From Promethearchaeota archaeon (lineage in GTDB: Archaea; Asgardarchaeota; Lokiarchaeia; Sigyniarchaeales; SOKP01), in assembly GCA_019058245.1 (NCBI GenBank), contig JAHPZJ010000004.1, positions 1-41,059 of the forward strand: DNA of 41,059 bases, in the 5' to 3' direction. The position numbers and the translations under genes were made by a program. Numbering within the stretch: position 1 is the stretch's first letter; every line of letters starts with the position of its first letter. Positions 313 through 9,067 of the stretch are shown here, one piece after another. The notes beneath the pieces were generated by a model. The model made no database searches. It had not been told where the DNA came from and worked only from the letters and a program-made list of their open reading frames with translations.

Positions 313-864
313 ATGGAATCTATGAGTAAAGTCTATACTTCAGCTGTTGTCATTACCCCCCCTCGAGAAAAGTGGTCATCAATTCAAGATATCCGTAAAA
401 TTTACGACCGAAATATTTATAGATGGATGCCACACATAACCTTAATATATCCTTTCAGACCTGAAAAAGAATATTTAAATCTTGAGAAGGCATTTACAGA
501 AAAATGCAAAAACATAAAAAAATTTGAAATTTCATTGAAAAAAATAAAATATTTTACTCATAGAAAAGATATATTTACAATTTGGCTTGATCCAGAACCT
601 AATCACTCCATAATATCTCTTCAAGCTAAAATTCTTGAAATTACTCCAGATTGCAATGATGTTAATAAATTCAAAAATGGTTATAAACCACATTTAAGTC
701 TTGGTCAAATTAAAGGTAAAATTAAGTTGGAAGAAATTATTAATAAATTACAGGAAAACTGGAAGGAAGTCAGTTTTTTATTAAATAATATACATTTCAT
801 ATCTCGAAAGCAAGAAAAATTTTCAAAATTTAAAATTATTAAATCAATAAGTTTGCAGAACTAA
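313..864 (+). CDS. 2H phosphoesterase (2'-5' RNA ligase / cyclic phosphodiesterase superfamily)
   Basis: Two HxT/S motifs, PHITL and PHLSL, about 85 aa apart. Confidence 0.85.
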   Translation: MESMSKVYTSAVVITPPREKWSSIQDIRKIYDRNIYRWMPHITLIYPFRPEKEYLNLEKAFTEKCKNIKKFEISLKKIKYFTHRKDIFTIWLDPEPNHSIISLQAKILEITPDCNDVNKFKNGYKPHLSLGQIKGKIKLEEIINKLQENWKEVSFLLNNIHFISRKQEKFSKFKIIKSISLQN

Positions 865-1116: not shown

Positions 1117-1728
1117 ATGACAGAGAAAAAAAAAGAAGAAAATTTAGTATTTCATGAGCGTACAGAGATGATATTTAAAATTATAGTGATTGGAGATCCT
1201 GCAGTTGGTAAAACAAGCCTTTTGACAAATTTCTGTGGCGATAAATTCAAATACGAATATATACCAACGGTGGGTGTTAATATCACCAAAGAACCTGTCA
1301 CTATAAAAGATGAAATGGGTAAGGATATTAGAGTAAATCTGATGATTTGGGATATAGCGGGACAATGCAATTGAGCTTACCTCTTTTGCGTCAATCCGCA
1401 ATTTTATATGCTACACCGTCCTTACTTTAATGGCGCTGATGGAATGATGTTAATTTATGATATCACAAGATCTAGCTCATTCTCTAATATAAATAATTGG
1501 TATTCTACAGCAGTTAAATATGGTCTTTCAGGAATTCCACGAATTTTAATAGGTAATAAAATTGACTTAAAAGATGAGAGAAAGATTATATTACCTATGG
1601 CTGAACATTTAAGTGAGAAAATTGGGGCCCAAATATTTGAAACTTCCGCATTAACAGGAGAGAATGTTCAATTAATTTTTCAAAAAATTGCGGAATTAAC
1701 TTTACGTTCAAAAATAGAAGAGCAATAG
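1117..1728 (+). CDS. Rab-like small GTPase, interrupted by a 30-nt insert; predicted join(1117..1365,1396..1728), 193 aa
   Basis: G1 GDPAVGKT, G2 PTVG and G3 WDIAGQ are in ORF 1117-1374; G4 GNKID and G5 ETSAL are in ORF 1408-1728. Both are in the same frame, separated by one TGA (1372-1374). Removing 1366-1395 gives WDIAGQ-PQFYMLHRPYFNGADG, in exact register with the Rab pattern WDTAGQERFxxxxxxYYRGA. Confidence 0.9.
1366..1395 (+). other. Candidate BHB (tRNA-splicing-endonuclease type) mRNA intron, 30 nt
   Basis: Exon helix GCG1357-59/CGC1397-99; central helix GGAC1360-63/GTCA1390-93 (three WC pairs plus one G.A); 3-nt bulges AA|T1364-66 and AT|C1394-96; intron helix GCAA1367-70/TTGC1386-89 plus GAG1373-75/CTC1381-83. 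Cutting after the second nucleotide of each bulge removes exactly 30 nt. Confidence 0.7.
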
Positions 1729-2233: not shown

Positions 2234-2845
2234 TTATCCTTTTACAGACAACTTATTAATCCAAAATGTGATTTTCTCCTTAAGGGTATTTTTCATATCA
2301 TCAGGAAGAGTTTCTAAACCATTTAACTTGCTTGCAAATTGACCAATTTCATAAAGAATTCTATGACCTCCTGTATAAATAAAAATATCGTCTTTGATTT
2401 TTTCTAGCCCTTTCATAATTGGTTGGGGATTATCATTTTTTATGATGAGTTCTTCCAGAATATTAAATTGATCCACTATTTCCTGTTTTCTGTCAGTAGC
2501 GGATGTATCGCGATCAACATTTTCATTATTTGCTTCTCTGGATTGTAAAGAAATATCTGATCTTTGGATTAAACTTCTAATTAAATCAAGCTCTTCTTCA
2601 AGAATTTTTTGATTTTCGATAACATTATTCAACTTAGGTATTAGGGCTTTAATATCAATTGTTGCTTTACTCAACTCATCAATTTTATTAATTAACACGT
2701 TTACTTGTAAATTTGTTTGACCCATTTTTGTAATTATATCAAATCCAAATTTTTCGAGAACGGTGGAAAATTTTTCTATCCTATCATCATTTTCTTTTAT
2801 AGATTTCATGACATTCTCATTATCTGAATTATTATTTTCTCCCAT
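2234..2845 (-). CDS. Hypothetical alpha-helical / coiled-coil protein
   Basis: 203-aa ORF with heptad-like pattern; purine-rich AAGGGGA upstream; no family motif recognised. Confidence 0.7.
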   Translation of the reverse strand: MGENNNSDNENVMKSIKENDDRIEKFSTVLEKFGFDIITKMGQTNLQVNVLINKIDELSKATIDIKALIPKLNNVIENQKILEEELDLIRSLIQRSDISLQSREANNENVDRDTSATDRKQEIVDQFNILEELIIKNDNPQPIMKGLEKIKDDIFIYTGGHRILYEIGQFASKLNGLETLPDDMKNTLKEKITFWINKLSVKG

Positions 2846-3051
2846 TGATATTCCCCTTTAAAGTGTTTTTTTAAAGAGATAATTTTATAAAAAATAAAAA
2901 ATCAATCTTTACAAAATTTATTTTGCATTTAAAATTATTATTTAATTAATAATAATATACAGTTCTTTTAATATTAGGATCTTTCAAAAAACTTCTTAAG
3001 TAAAAAAAATATCATGAATTAAATAGAAACAAATTAAAAATCCGCTTAATA

Positions 3052-3921
3052 ATGATACAATACATTAACGTTTTGACTAGAGATGGCAAATCATTGTTAT
3101 TTAGAAATTATGGTAGTTCTGAAGTAGATAGAGATTTATTAGCTGGATTTTTAAGCGCTTTTTCAGGTTTTATGAAGGAAATAAGTCAAAGTGATATTAA
3201 GAGTACAGCTACAGAAGACTTTAAGTATTATTATACTATAATTGATACAATTATAATTGTGGTATGCACTGATTTAGAAGATGATGATGCAACCGTTAAC
3301 TCTAAAATCCTTAGTATTAGAACAAAATTCATCGAGAAGTATGGAAAGATTTTAGAGGATGGTAGTTGGGCAGGAAATAGAAGTCTCTTCAGTGATTTTG
3401 AACAAGAACTAGATAATATAATTTTAGGAGCAATTAAAATATCAATTATTGGATTTGGTGGAGTTGGTAAGACTACTTTAACAAAATTGATTTGCGGGAA
3501 AGATGTTAATCTTGAATATGTTCCAACGATTACAGCCGATATTGCTGCTTATAATGGAGATGAGTTTGAAAGGTCAATAACATTATGGGATTTTGCAGGA
3601 CAAGCTCAATTTAGGTCTTTATGGAAAAGTCTCTTGCAAGGATCAGATATTTGTATTCTAGTTACTGATTCTACTTTTGAAAATATAAATGGCTCTAAGG
3701 AGATAATACATGATATTTTAGATAAATATTATCAAGAAAAAGTAGTGATTGGGATTGCGAATAAACAAGATTTACCGAATAGATTAACACCAGAGTTCTG
3801 TGAAAAAATTTTATCTAGTGAAAAGCGAGTCATTAAGACACACGGAATGATTGCTATTGAACCTATGTATCGAGAAAAAATATTGGCAATACTAAAAGAA
3901 GCAATAAAAAAAATTTCTTAG
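3052..3921 (+). CDS. Longin-like domain fused to an Arf/Rab-like small GTPase (eukaryotic signature protein)
   Basis: N-terminal INVLTRDGKSLLFRNY...DLLAGFLSAFSGFMKEI longin pattern; C-terminal GFGGVGKT, PTI, WDFAGQ, ANKQD. Confidence 0.85.
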   Translation: MIQYINVLTRDGKSLLFRNYGSSEVDRDLLAGFLSAFSGFMKEISQSDIKSTATEDFKYYYTIIDTIIIVVCTDLEDDDATVNSKILSIRTKFIEKYGKILEDGSWAGNRSLFSDFEQELDNIILGAIKISIIGFGGVGKTTLTKLICGKDVNLEYVPTITADIAAYNGDEFERSITLWDFAGQAQFRSLWKSLLQGSDICILVTDSTFENINGSKEIIHDILDKYYQEKVVIGIANKQDLPNRLTPEFCEKILSSEKRVIKTHGMIAIEPMYREKILAILKEAIKKIS

Positions 3922-5821: not shown

Positions 5822-8800
5822 CTAAGTACTTCCTCTTTTTTTCATAAAGATATACACAACACTTATCACCGCGACTCCTCCGACTATAGAGACAACAACA
5901 ATAATTATAATGACAGTTGGGTCTAATCCACCTTCTGGAATGCTTTTAATTACACTCACACCTTCAGATACTTCATGTCCCGCGAGATCTCTGACATAGA
6001 ATGTAATATTGACTTCACCCTTGGATAAAGCTGTCCAAGCCGTCTGGTCAAAAGTACCATTATTCACAACAGTATGATTGGTCAATCCGCCATCAAATGA
6101 ATACCATATTTTATCTAGATTTACCTCTATAACATTTATATTAAATGAGGGTGCAGTATTGCCAAATGTCTCTCCTTCAGTTGGTGCGTTGATAATAATA
6201 ATAGGTGCTACAGTGTCCTTAATGATACTAACTTCTGCAGTTCCTACATGTCCTAAATCATCAACAGCGTAGAACTTAAGTGTAATCACTCCATCCGTCA
6301 TGGCATCCCATTTTGTTTGATTGATAGTGCTATTTGTCGTGAAGGTGTAATTATTTAAACCACCATCAATCGTATACCACATTGATACTAAATAATCATC
6401 GTTGATTCTTACGTCAAAAGAGGGGGCTATATTGCTAAATACTTCTCCTGAAGAAGGGGAGTTAATATTAATAGTTGGAACTTCATTATCTTTTATTATA
6501 GCAACCTCATCAGAGTTGATATTCATTGGCTTATCACTAGCATAAAATGTTAATATGACACTGCCCTCAGGTGTGGCATCCCATGCATCTTGATTAATCG
6601 TCCCATTATCAGTAAATGTAAAGTTTATTGATCCCCCATCGATTGTATACCACATTTCATATAAATAAACATCATTTATTCTAACATTGAACGATGGTGC
6701 TACACTACCAAATATCTTACCGGATGTAGGTGAATTTATTGTTATAGTGGGTTGAACATCATCTATTATTGGTAAATGGTCTTGGATTAAGGGAGTAAGG
6801 CTAATATTATAGGGCTCAATTCCGATACCATCACCACGATCTGTGCCAGTATAATTATCCCAGTAATTCCCAATTATACTACTGTTCCATTTATTATCTA
6901 TTCCATCATCCATTGCATGTTTTCCATTCTGAAGAAAGAAATTTTGAAAGATAGAGTTGTTATTACTATTAGTTTCTAAATATATTCCATAAACGGTATT
7001 TTTTCTTAAAATATTTCCCATTATAGTATTATTAATCCCTTCTTCTACTTCTATTCCGTCGTAACTATTGTTGTATGCTAGATTCTCAACGATATTATTG
7101 AAATTACTATAATACAGGCTAATCCCACCACTATTATTATTAAGATTATTTTGTGAGATATTATTGTAATCACATTCATTTTCAAGAAAAATCCCATCAT
7201 TACAACTCTTTGCCGAATTTTCATTAATTTTATTATGGTCGCTGGCTGTTAAATAAATTCCTGCCCTATTATTATTACTTACGCTATTTTCGGTAAGATT
7301 GTTGTAATCACTATCCTCTAAATGAATACCATCATTATTATTTCCATCTGCAATATTTCCAGAGAGGGTATTGTTATAACAATAATTGCACAAAAATATC
7401 CCATCACTACTGTTATATACATAATTTCCTGAAATTGTAACATTTATACATTCTTCCAGATATATTCCATTTTCATCATTTCCTTGTGCAGTATTATCAA
7501 TGATGCTACTGACAGTACATATATTTATAGAAATCCCATGTTCATTATCATTTACTGTGTTTCCTGTAATATTGACATAGTTACTTTCGTATACATTAAT
7601 CGCATCATAAATATTATTATTTACAATATTTTCAAAAATAGTAATATTATTACTATATTCTGCATAAATCCCCCAATATAGATTAGAACAATTATTGCTG
7701 ATTATTTTAGAATTATTTACATTATCTAGAGAGATTCCATTTTCATTAGTATTGTAAATTTTACAGTTTCGTATAATAAAACTGACATTAGAATTTCTAA
7801 TATCAATAGGGTAAATATTTTCAATTTTGAAGGCACTTAGTGTAAGATTTTCAATAATAAAAGGATCTAAATCTGTTCCTGAACCAGAACACCAGGTCTG
7901 ACTTTTTGCCCATGTCCAATTATGTGCACCAACACCGGTGGCAGTACCATCAATAAATATTGGTTCTGTTACCGTATGAGGTGAACAATCGTTATATTCA
8001 ATAATATTACCTGTACTTAAAGTCTCATAAATACACCAATTATTACTTGTCAAATCATTTCCTGACACATTGTTGAAATCACTTTCCTGTAATCCTATTC
8101 CTAAATCATTTCTATTTATTGTATTATTTTTAATAACGTTATTATCACAACGACGTAGATATAACCCTATTGCTGTATTATCATTTGCAGTGTTTTTAGT
8201 AATATTACAAGAATCTGAATAGTCTAAATATATTCCATGTTTATTATTATTATTTACTGTGTTACCTGTGATATTACAATTATCGGAATAGGAGATATAT
8301 ATTCCATAGACGCCATTATTATTAACCGTATTATTGATAAGCCTTGTTTTATGAGAGTTAGTATGTATCCTTATACCAAAACTTTCAAGTGAGGCGTGAA
8401 AATTGAAATTACATTCATTGTCAATTAGAGTATTATTTTCACTATAATCACCCACGATAATCCCTATATTATTATAATTTGCGGTATTGTTTGCAATAGT
8501 ATTATTTTTACAACCAGAAAATGAGTCAGAAACCCATCCAAATAATCCTATACCCAAATTAGAATTACTGTTAGCAGTGTTATTCGCAATGGTATTATTA
8601 TAGCAATATCTATATAGGAATATTCCTCCTCGCCCCTTATTGTTTGAACAGTTATTTTCAATTAAAGTCCCATTATTTGTATTTTCTAATTTAATCCCCG
8701 CATTATAAGATGATGAACTGCCTGTCACATTATAAACAGAACAGTTTCTTATGATAAAATACACATTCTTGGAATTACTTATTATTATACCGCTTCCTGT

Positions 8801-9067
8801 TGGAGATTTTCCCGCATTAATAGTGACATTTTCAATAATATAAATTCCATTTACTTGCCTGCACCATGGTTTTAAGAGTGTATCTGACCAATTATTGAGA
8901 ATACTCCCATCGATATGAATAAAATCTTCAATATAACCTCCCGAGGTTTTTGGTTTAATTTTATTAGTCTTTTGCACATCATAGAAATTGCTGTAGTTAT
9001 TAATTATTAATGGAAAGATAAGTACTAAAATCAATAAGATTACTAATTTTTCTCTTTTAATTTTCAT
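5822..9067 (-). CDS. Cell-surface protein: two NosD/parallel beta-helix modules, three Ig-like repeats, C-terminal membrane anchor
   Basis: Hydrophobic N-terminus; many GIYL..S..N.I..N repeats; GNYWDNY motif; three PxIxINxP...WY(T/S)(I/F)DGG repeats; TM helix followed by KKR. Confidence 0.85.
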   Translation of the reverse strand: MKIKREKLVILLILVLIFPLIINNYSNFYDVQKTNKIKPKTSGGYIEDFIHIDGSILNNWSDTLLKPWCRQVNGIYIIENVTINAGKSPTGSGIIISNSKNVYFIIRNCSVYNVTGSSSSYNAGIKLENTNNGTLIENNCSNNKGRGGIFLYRYCYNNTIANNTANSNSNLGIGLFGWVSDSFSGCKNNTIANNTANYNNIGIIVGDYSENNTLIDNECNFNFHASLESFGIRIHTNSHKTRLINNTVNNNGVYGIYISYSDNCNITGNTVNNNNKHGIYLDYSDSCNITKNTANDNTAIGLYLRRCDNNVIKNNTINRNDLGIGLQESDFNNVSGNDLTSNNWCIYETLSTGNIIEYNDCSPHTVTEPIFIDGTATGVGAHNWTWAKSQTWCSGSGTDLDPFIIENLTLSAFKIENIYPIDIRNSNVSFIIRNCKIYNTNENGISLDNVNNSKIISNNCSNLYWGIYAEYSNNITIFENIVNNNIYDAINVYESNYVNITGNTVNDNEHGISINICTVSSIIDNTAQGNDENGIYLEECINVTISGNYVYNSSDGIFLCNYCYNNTLSGNIADGNNNDGIHLEDSDYNNLTENSVSNNNRAGIYLTASDHNKINENSAKSCNDGIFLENECDYNNISQNNLNNNSGGISLYYSNFNNIVENLAYNNSYDGIEVEEGINNTIMGNILRKNTVYGIYLETNSNNNSIFQNFFLQNGKHAMDDGIDNKWNSSIIGNYWDNYTGTDRGDGIGIEPYNISLTPLIQDHLPIIDDVQPTITINSPTSGKIFGSVAPSFNVRINDVYLYEMWYTIDGGSINFTFTDNGTINQDAWDATPEGSVILTFYASDKPMNINSDEVAIIKDNEVPTININSPSSGEVFSNIAPSFDVRINDDYLVSMWYTIDGGLNNYTFTTNSTINQTKWDAMTDGVITLKFYAVDDLGHVGTAEVSIIKDTVAPIIIINAPTEGETFGNTAPSFNINVIEVNLDKIWYSFDGGLTNHTVVNNGTFDQTAWTALSKGEVNITFYVRDLAGHEVSEGVSVIKSIPEGGLDPTVIIIIVVVSIVGGVAVISVVYIFMKKRGST

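What the first reader, a model, noticed from the sequence alone, without database searches (positions are those of the whole stretch)
1357..1399. Candidate BHB (tRNA-type) intron in the mRNA of an Asgard Rab-like GTPase
Seen: the two GTPase fragments are in one frame, and between G3 Gln (CAA 1363-65) and Pro (CCG 1396-98) sit 30 extra nt (TGCAATTGAGCTTACCTCTTTTGCGTCAAT) with a TGA. Removing them gives exact Rab switch-II spacing; the paralog at 3052 has the same uninterrupted GQxQF spacing. The junctions fold as GCG/CGC helix, central GGAC/GUCA helix, two 3-nt bulges on opposite strands and a GCAA/UUGC intron helix. Established: archaeal EndA cuts after the second nucleotide of each BHB bulge, RtcB ligates, and crenarchaeal cbf5 is the classic mRNA example. 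Here those positions (1365|1366, 1395|1396) are exactly the frame-restoring ones. The rest of the gene shows no decay. Inference: expression of a eukaryote-like GTPase depends on splicing and may be regulated, reminiscent of non-spliceosomal HAC1/XBP1 splicing. Caveat: one central pair is G.A, and a rival register (3-bp helix) would excise 29 nt.
Basis: partly seen in the sequence, partly recalled or inferred. Interest (0 to 1): 0.92.

Follow-up and report, generated by a model that had tools for sequence, protein, structure and literature searches.

The report
tRNA-type mini-intron in Asgard Rab-like gene
A Rab-like GTPase gene of a Loki-type Asgard archaeon is broken by a 30-base insert shaped like the introns archaea cut out of tRNAs. 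It is one of at least eight such inserts in this genome's protein genes, so these messenger RNAs are very probably spliced, which the papers I could search report inside the coding sequence of only one archaeal gene (cbf5).

Summary
Confirmed. A 30-nt insert (1366-1395, in-frame TGA) splits G3 Gln from Pro. Removing it gives a 193-aa GTPase about 94% identical to an uninterrupted relative.

Four other genomes in two genera carry 30-nt inserts at exactly this site, in two unrelated sequence families. All four intron-helix pairs show compensatory changes, and the G·A pair is G·U in three of five. Three further sites in this gene carry bulge-helix-bulge (BHB) inserts. Both exons are under purifying selection (dN/dS 0.04-0.06).

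This genome holds at least eight such inserts (GTPase, cdhA twice, ahcY, cobO, uppS, two more), a two-subunit EndA and RtcB. Single-copy uL11 carried them in all 11 split copies examined. Across 48 inserts, 44 form a BHB in a frame-restoring register, against about 5 expected.

Best reading (0.9): an EndA/RtcB-spliced mRNA intron, one of a patchy population of mini-introns. HAC1-like regulation is unsupported: about 107 of 115 orthologs lack any intron, and carriers are not a clade. No RNA reads were available, so splicing is inferred.

The scan found this phenomenon before on other DNA, including Rab-like genes.

The parts
1117..1365 (+). Exon 1 of the Rab-like small GTPase (G1 P-loop, switch I, G3 DIAGQ; 83 codons)
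   Evidence: the ortholog hits Pfam Ras and is named 'Rab family GTPase [Promethearchaeota archaeon]'
1366..1395 (+). 30-nt candidate BHB intron, phase 0, with an in-frame TGA at 1372-1374
   Evidence: absent from 27 of 29 orthologs first aligned; unique frame-restoring register
1396..1728 (+). Exon 2 (switch II PQFYMLHR, G4 NKID, G5 ETSA, stop)
   Evidence: dN/dS 0.038 against the closest relative, no lesion
1360..1363 (+). Central helix, exon strand GGAC (pairs with 1390-1393)
   Evidence: GGAC is invariant in all five site carriers
1364..1366 (+). 5' bulge AA|U; predicted cut 1365|1366
   Evidence: BHB geometry; cut rule from PMC2738675
1367..1389 (+). Intron hairpin: GCAA (1367-70) with UUGC (1386-89); inner GAG (1373-75) with CUC (1381-83)
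   Evidence: all four outer pairs show two-sided changes among carriers
1390..1393 (+). Central helix, intron strand GUCA (outer pair G.A here; G.U in three other carriers)
1394..1396 (+). 3' bulge AU|C; predicted cut 1395|1396
1357..1399 (+). Whole BHB, closed by the exon-exon helix GCG (1357-59) with CGC (1397-99)
   Evidence: this helix is the least conserved part, 77% of cells paired

Best explanation
The insert is a protein-spliced, tRNA-type (BHB) intron in the GTPase mRNA. The pre-mRNA folds into the BHB. The two-subunit EndA cuts after the second base of each bulge (1365|1366 and 1395|1396), and RtcB joins the exons to give ...GGA CAA CCG CAA... and a normal 193-aa GTPase. Unspliced RNA would stop at the TGA after 85 codons. 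It is not special to this gene: it belongs to a population of 28-37-nt BHB introns in conserved motifs of ordinary protein genes of this Promethearchaeota family. They come and go between lineages, probably as nearly neutral passengers tolerated because the tRNA-splicing enzymes remove them. SHOWN: the insert, BHB geometry at the frame-restoring cuts, covariation, selection on the exons, other inserts, and the enzyme genes. INFERRED: cleavage, ligation, translation of the spliced RNA, and the route of spread.
For: (1) Same-site 30-nt inserts in G025, G061, G147 and G114, in two sequence families sharing only 10-13 of 30 bases. The four intron-helix pairs all have two-sided changes; 84% of cells pair against 20-42% for slid registers. 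(2) Three other sites in the same gene (codons 21, 48, 53-55) carry 30-31-nt inserts with 4/4 central helices at the frame-restoring cuts. (3) 44 of 48 distinct inserts found by protein alignment alone pass a BHB test; about 5 are expected from shuffles, and 12 of 480 other registers pass. Two thirds are not multiples of 3. (4) dN/dS is 0.059 and 0.038 for exons 1 and 2 against G024, with no stop in any spliced carrier. (5) uL11 carried BHB inserts, up to three per gene, in all 11 split copies examined, and the ten tested genomes have a single copy. (6) The genome has an EndA alpha subunit with Tyr/His/Lys catalytic motifs and an N-terminal loop aligning with the best PDB match (3p1z_B, E 4e-35), a second His-less subunit, and RtcB. 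Asgard EndA is reported as (alpha-beta)2 with the L1 loop tied to relaxed motifs (PMC5829648).
Against: No spliced read, excised circle or peptide was seen. In this genome the outer central pair is G.A, and the predicted minimum-energy fold is a different hairpin, 8.7 kcal/mol below the BHB. This genome has about 50 other small GTPases, so this copy may be dispensable. Pairwise dN/dS cannot detect very recent loss of function. The 48 inserts are not independent (several are kin), and the best register was chosen among 1-8 equivalent ones (the shuffle null allowed the same choice).
Confidence: 0.9

Rival explanations
1. Recent pseudogene: an insertion knocked out a dispensable GTPase copy and the RNA is never productively spliced.
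For: About 50 paralogs exist. The closest relative lacks the insert. The G.A pair and the competing fold weaken this copy's BHB.
Against: No second lesion; dN/dS 0.04-0.06; terminal branch 0.087 against 0.069 for its sister. Five carriers at one base position keep the BHB through compensatory changes, which random knockouts would not do.
Confidence: 0.04
2. Regulated splicing switch (HAC1/XBP1-like): the competing fold or the 29-nt register makes splicing conditional and controls GTPase levels.
For: A more stable alternative hairpin and a 3-bp rival register exist. A regulatory role was proposed for the cbf5 intron (PMC2738675).
Against: About 107 of 115 orthologs have no intron, carriers are scattered over the tree, and introns occur at four different sites of this gene and in unrelated housekeeping genes.
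Confidence: 0.08
3. Selenocysteine read-through: the TGA encodes Sec and the insert is a 10-residue coding loop (C-N-U-A-Y-L-F-C-V-N).
For: The genome has in-frame TGA at Cys positions of HdrA- and MvhD-like genes. TGA is kept at the same codon in G000, G025 and G061.
Against: The same-site inserts of G147 and G114 stop at TAA in a different codon. The insert's amino acids are not conserved while its base pairs are. Other inserts shift the frame. A 10-residue loop between the G3 Gln and switch II would be expected to disrupt the GTPase (inference). No Rfam SECIS match near the gene (weak, no positive control).
Confidence: 0.01
4. Assembly or sequencing artefact, or ribosomal bypassing of the hairpin.
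Against: Homologous but different inserts occur in independent genomes, and G061's version recurs unchanged in two public metagenome contigs. The only matching landing codon for a hop (CAA 1392-94) would skip 29 nt and shift the frame, and it is absent in G025 (seen in the sequence).
Confidence: 0.02

Closest known systems
BHB intron in the cbf5 pre-mRNA of Desulfurococcales and Sulfolobales (PMC2738675)
   Same: Short (16-44 nt there, 28-37 nt here), sits in a conserved motif, often a relaxed BHB, cuts between bulge bases 2 and 3, host has a two-subunit EndA.
   Different: cbf5 is one gene and one site, inherited vertically with losses, and splicing is shown by cDNA. Here there are many genes and sites, several introns per mRNA, a patchy distribution, an Asgard host, and no RNA proof.
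Non-canonical tRNA introns of Asgard archaea (bioRxiv 10.64898/2026.10.13.758758) and Thermoproteales
   Same: Same motif and enzymes; repeated independent gains; route of arrival unknown.
   Different: Those lie in tRNA genes. That preprint does not contain the word mRNA. No copy of this insert exists elsewhere in the genome within 8 mismatches.
BHB intron in the 5' UTR of Haloferax HVO_1309 (PMC7714728)
   Same: EndA substrate inside an mRNA, cleaved in vitro.
   Different: Untranslated region; 46 nt; no reading frame depends on it.
HAC1/XBP1 unconventional splicing (from my own knowledge)
   Same: Endonuclease-plus-ligase splicing of an mRNA without a spliceosome; XBP1 uses RtcB.
   Different: Cut by Ire1 at stem-loops, not a BHB, and conserved as a stress switch. 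This intron is not conserved and no regulation is shown.

Membership tests
Archaeal BHB (EndA-spliced) intron | 4-bp central helix between exon and intron | tested here: met
   3/4 plus G.A here and in G061; 4/4 in G025, G147 and G114. Relaxed in this genome.
Archaeal BHB (EndA-spliced) intron | Two 3-nt bulges on opposite strands, with cuts after the second base giving the functional product | tested here: met
   Cuts 1365|1366 and 1395|1396 are the only 30-nt register that restores the protein.
Archaeal BHB (EndA-spliced) intron | Flanking helices (intron-side and exon-side) | tested here: met
   Intron helix 4/4 with covariation; exon helix 3 bp here and weaker in relatives.
Archaeal BHB (EndA-spliced) intron | BHB is the fold the RNA adopts | tested here: inconclusive
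   ViennaRNA prefers another hairpin in this genome; the central helix is in the minimum-energy fold for G147.
Archaeal BHB (EndA-spliced) intron | Host encodes EndA able to cut relaxed motifs, and RtcB | tested here: met
   Two EndA subunits and RtcB. Breadth of specificity is inferred from the loop, not assayed.
Archaeal BHB (EndA-spliced) intron | Excision and ligation seen in RNA or in vitro | not testable with these tools
   No RNA holder was listed.
cbf5 intron family | Located in the catalytic Asp codon of cbf5 | tested here: not met
   The host gene is a Ras-family GTPase. It works like the cbf5 intron but is not a member.
HAC1/XBP1-type regulatory intron | Conserved position across the lineage, with conditional splicing | tested here: not met
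   5 of about 115 genomes at this site; carriers are not a clade. Conditional splicing was not testable.
Selenoprotein (UGA recoding) | Conserved in-frame TGA aligned to Cys, plus a SECIS | tested here: not met
   The TGA lies in an insert absent from orthologs; TAA in two carriers; no Rfam SECIS hit.
Rab-like small GTPase of Asgard archaea | Intact G1-G5 motifs after splicing; Ras-family match | tested here: met
   No C-terminal cysteine, so not a true prenylated Rab.

The most novel reading that the evidence does not exclude
Loki-type Asgard archaea routinely splice mRNAs with the tRNA machinery. They carry roughly ten or more mobile BHB mini-introns per genome, up to three in one ribosomal-protein gene, which spread sideways into conserved coding motifs. 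This would be a multi-gene, multi-intron mRNA splicing regime in the archaeal relatives of eukaryotes, independent of group II introns and the spliceosome.
Probability: 0.75. Interest if true: 0.85.

Novelty: new variant of a known kind. Interest (0 to 1): 0.68.

Why it matters
The papers I could search list one archaeal coding-sequence BHB intron (cbf5; PMC7714728 calls it the only example as of 2020). A population of such introns in Asgard protein genes would mean three things. First, mRNA splicing, including multi-intron splicing in a cell without a nucleus, works in the lineage closest to eukaryotes. Second, many 'split' or 'missing' Asgard genes, including marker genes such as uL11 and eukaryotic-signature GTPases, are mis-annotated. 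Third, intron gain can be watched among close relatives, which makes the open question of how BHB introns arrive testable. This GTPase intron is a good test case because sister genomes with and without it exist.

Tried and rejected
The look-up of sequencing runs: no RNA holder listed, which says nothing about expression. Six DNA runs hold at least 93% of the sampled words, but read laying showed no contig across the insert, so neither is used as evidence. A degenerate pattern of the insert found nothing in metagenome contigs. No copy of the insert elsewhere in the genome within 8 mismatches, so no donor was identified; ARAGORN finds only 19 tRNAs, so the tRNA set is incomplete. A paralog-based self-scan found only this insert. 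A blastn census missed the second cdhA intron, so I replaced it with a motif-free spliced aligner. G155, G134 and G010's second match are cut by contig ends, and G019 is broken with no intron found. The G022 cdhA alignment crosses an assembly gap and was excluded except for codon 169. A resemblance of the insert's middle to type I-B CRISPR repeats (from memory) was dropped: it is single-copy and that part varies among carriers. Rfam found nothing meaningful. The PDB search of the GTPase at E 1e-38 was empty. Nine literature searches found no report of Asgard mRNA BHB introns; the library lacks most subscription papers.

Full report
OBSERVATION. The window is contig C4 of a 3.09-Mb, 76%-complete, 29%-GC genome. 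Same-genus orthologs are labelled Promethearchaeota / Lokiarchaeota. Two ORFs, 1117-1374 and 1408-1728, share a frame. Removing 1366-1395 gives a stop-free 193-aa Ras-family GTPase with all G motifs. Of 29 orthologs first aligned, 27 are uninterrupted and all read DIAGQPQFYMLHR or DVAGQPQFYMLHR. The closest, G024, is about 94% identical and syntenic. Only one 30-nt register restores the protein, and it coincides with cuts after the second base of each bulge of a BHB: central GGAC/GUCA (outer pair G.A), intron helix GCAA/UUGC, exon helix GCG/CGC. Shuffling the insert gives a fit this good in 0.5% of trials. ViennaRNA's minimum-energy fold is a different hairpin (-17.3 kcal/mol against -8.6 for the BHB and -12.5 for the 3-bp rival), so folding alone does not prove the motif.

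SAME SITE IN RELATIVES. Of 135 family genomes, 115 have the gene. Five carry a 30-nt insert at this exact junction. G000, G025 and G061 form one sequence family (20-24 of 30 identical). G147 and G114, in another genus, form a second family that shares only 10-13 of 30 bases with the first and stops at TAA instead of TGA. On the gap-free alignment, 84% of cells pair against 20-42% for slid registers, and each of the four intron-helix pairs has a change on both sides. With five related rows the shuffle counts are not probabilities. The outer central pair is G.U in three carriers and G.A in two. This favours the 4-bp, 30-nt register over the 29-nt rival. G061's version recurs unchanged in two public metagenome contigs, which argues against an assembly error.

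OTHER SITES IN THIS GENE. Codon 21 (G077), codons 53-55 (G018, and a frameshifting 31-mer in G088) and codon 48 (metagenome contig L237) carry inserts with 4/4 central helices at frame-restoring cuts.

SELECTION AND HISTORY. dN/dS against G024 is 0.059 for exon 1 and 0.038 for exon 2. No spliced carrier has a stop. In a gene tree without the 10 codons on each side of the site, G000 groups with intron-less G024, G061 with G022, and G025 with G018 (which has a different intron). One clade of G000, G025 and G061 is rejected (AU p=2e-6). Related introns in non-sister genes mean lateral spread or many precise losses. G061 is the best match to G000 over the 30 nt upstream (29/30) though only average over the gene. 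This is a weak hint of co-conversion, since four others reach 28/30.

NOT A LONE CASE. A motif-free spliced alignment of about 1,390 reference proteins (mostly 2 Mb of G006) to this genome found five disruptive insertions with well-conserved flanks, and all five are BHBs: this one, two in cdhA (32 and 34 nt), one in a response regulator (31 nt) and one in an 88-aa protein (30 nt). Three leads from earlier scan notes were tested and hold: ahcY (32 nt), cobO (30 nt) and uppS (30 nt, shared with G024). That makes at least eight inserts in seven genes. In relatives, cdhA has inserts at codons 43, 68, 69, 71, 75, 114 and 169. The uL11 N-terminal domain is split or truncated in roughly half of the family's genomes. 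All 11 split copies examined have BHB inserts, G064 and G005 three each, and the ten tested genomes have one copy of the gene. Over 48 distinct inserts (28-37 nt; 32 not a multiple of 3), 44 pass a BHB test and all 48 have at least 3/4 central pairs. About 5 passes are expected from shuffles, 12 of 480 neighbouring registers pass, and 24% reach 3/4 when introns are placed in foreign exons. G.A at the outer central position occurs six times and is the commonest mismatch. These inserts are partly kin, so the counts overstate independence.

MACHINERY. The genome encodes two EndA paralogs and RtcB. One has the Tyr, His and Lys motifs and aligns best with PDB 3p1z_B and 3ajv_B, including the N-terminal G..G.PL...KPR loop; from memory these entries are the Aeropyrum enzyme. 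The other lacks the His. PMC5829648 reports Asgard EndA as (alpha-beta)2 with the L1 loop linked to relaxed motifs, and PMC6379350 says only this type and epsilon2 cut relaxed BHBs efficiently.

MECHANISM. Most likely (0.9), EndA cuts 1365|1366 and 1395|1396, RtcB ligates, and the spliced mRNA gives the normal GTPase; unspliced RNA ends at the TGA after 85 codons. The sequence, geometry, covariation, selection and enzyme genes are shown. Cleavage, ligation and spread are inferred. The rivals are a pseudogene (0.04), a regulated switch (0.08, compatible with splicing), Sec read-through (0.01, although the genome appears to use Sec), and an artefact or ribosomal hop (0.02).

COMPARISON AND NOVELTY. 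It works like the cbf5 intron (PMC2738675) but is not of that family. PMC7714728 (2020) names cbf5 as the only earlier mRNA example and adds a 5' UTR case. A 2026 preprint describes repeated gains of Asgard tRNA introns without treating mRNA. Nine searches found no report of Asgard coding-sequence BHB introns, within a library that lacks most subscription journals. This scan has noted the phenomenon many times on other DNA, including Rab-like genes; those notes were used as leads only, after my reading was formed. Verdict: a new variant of a known kind. The system is of high interest; the GTPase-regulation idea is unsupported; RNA proof is missing.

Noticed in passing
G000 C28:104782-107187 (-): cdhA (CO dehydrogenase alpha) carries two BHB inserts, 32 nt at codon 43 (also with an outer G.A pair) and 34 nt at codon 69. 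Close homologs of the 34-mer occur in G016, G002 and G032.
   Followed up: yes
L203-L212; G006 C1:1129379: Single-copy uL11 has BHB inserts at codons 17, 24, 28 and 33-34; three in one gene in G064 and G005. About half of the family shows a split or truncated N-terminal domain.
   Followed up: partly
G000 C13:239819 (+) and C23:13253 (+): BHB inserts in an 88-aa hypothetical protein (30 nt, codon 8) and a response regulator (31 nt, codon 16).
   Followed up: partly
L221 (G000 C29 near 64,600) and L220 (G024): The uppS insert in the DGNRRW motif is in frame and stop-free in this genome but has a TAG in G024, so stop-free introns would be invisible to split-ORF scans.
   Followed up: partly
window 313-864 (+): A 2'-5' RNA ligase / LigT-like phosphoesterase gene lies directly upstream of the GTPase. 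It is syntenic in intron-less G024, so probably incidental.
   Followed up: partly
window 2234-3921: A 203-aa gene with no Pfam match, divergent from a 289-aa protein with an unassigned N-terminal domain (longin-like by earlier notes) fused to an Arf/Roc-like GTPase; the arrangement is conserved in G024.
   Followed up: no
G000 C13:36750, C13:38145, C17:89296, C28:244466: In-frame TGA at Cys-aligned positions of HdrA- and MvhD-like genes: likely selenoproteins.
   Followed up: no
G010 C146:2774-3304 (-): Another small-GTPase paralog with a TAG and a TAA inside the match; may hold a further intron.
   Followed up: no
window 5822-9067 (+): A 1081-aa repetitive, probably secreted protein with no match in the syntenic G024 segment listed.
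   Followed up: no
None of the 16 matches in other families of the order has a stop inside this GTPase; the inserts were seen only in family f1 among those searched.
   Followed up: partly
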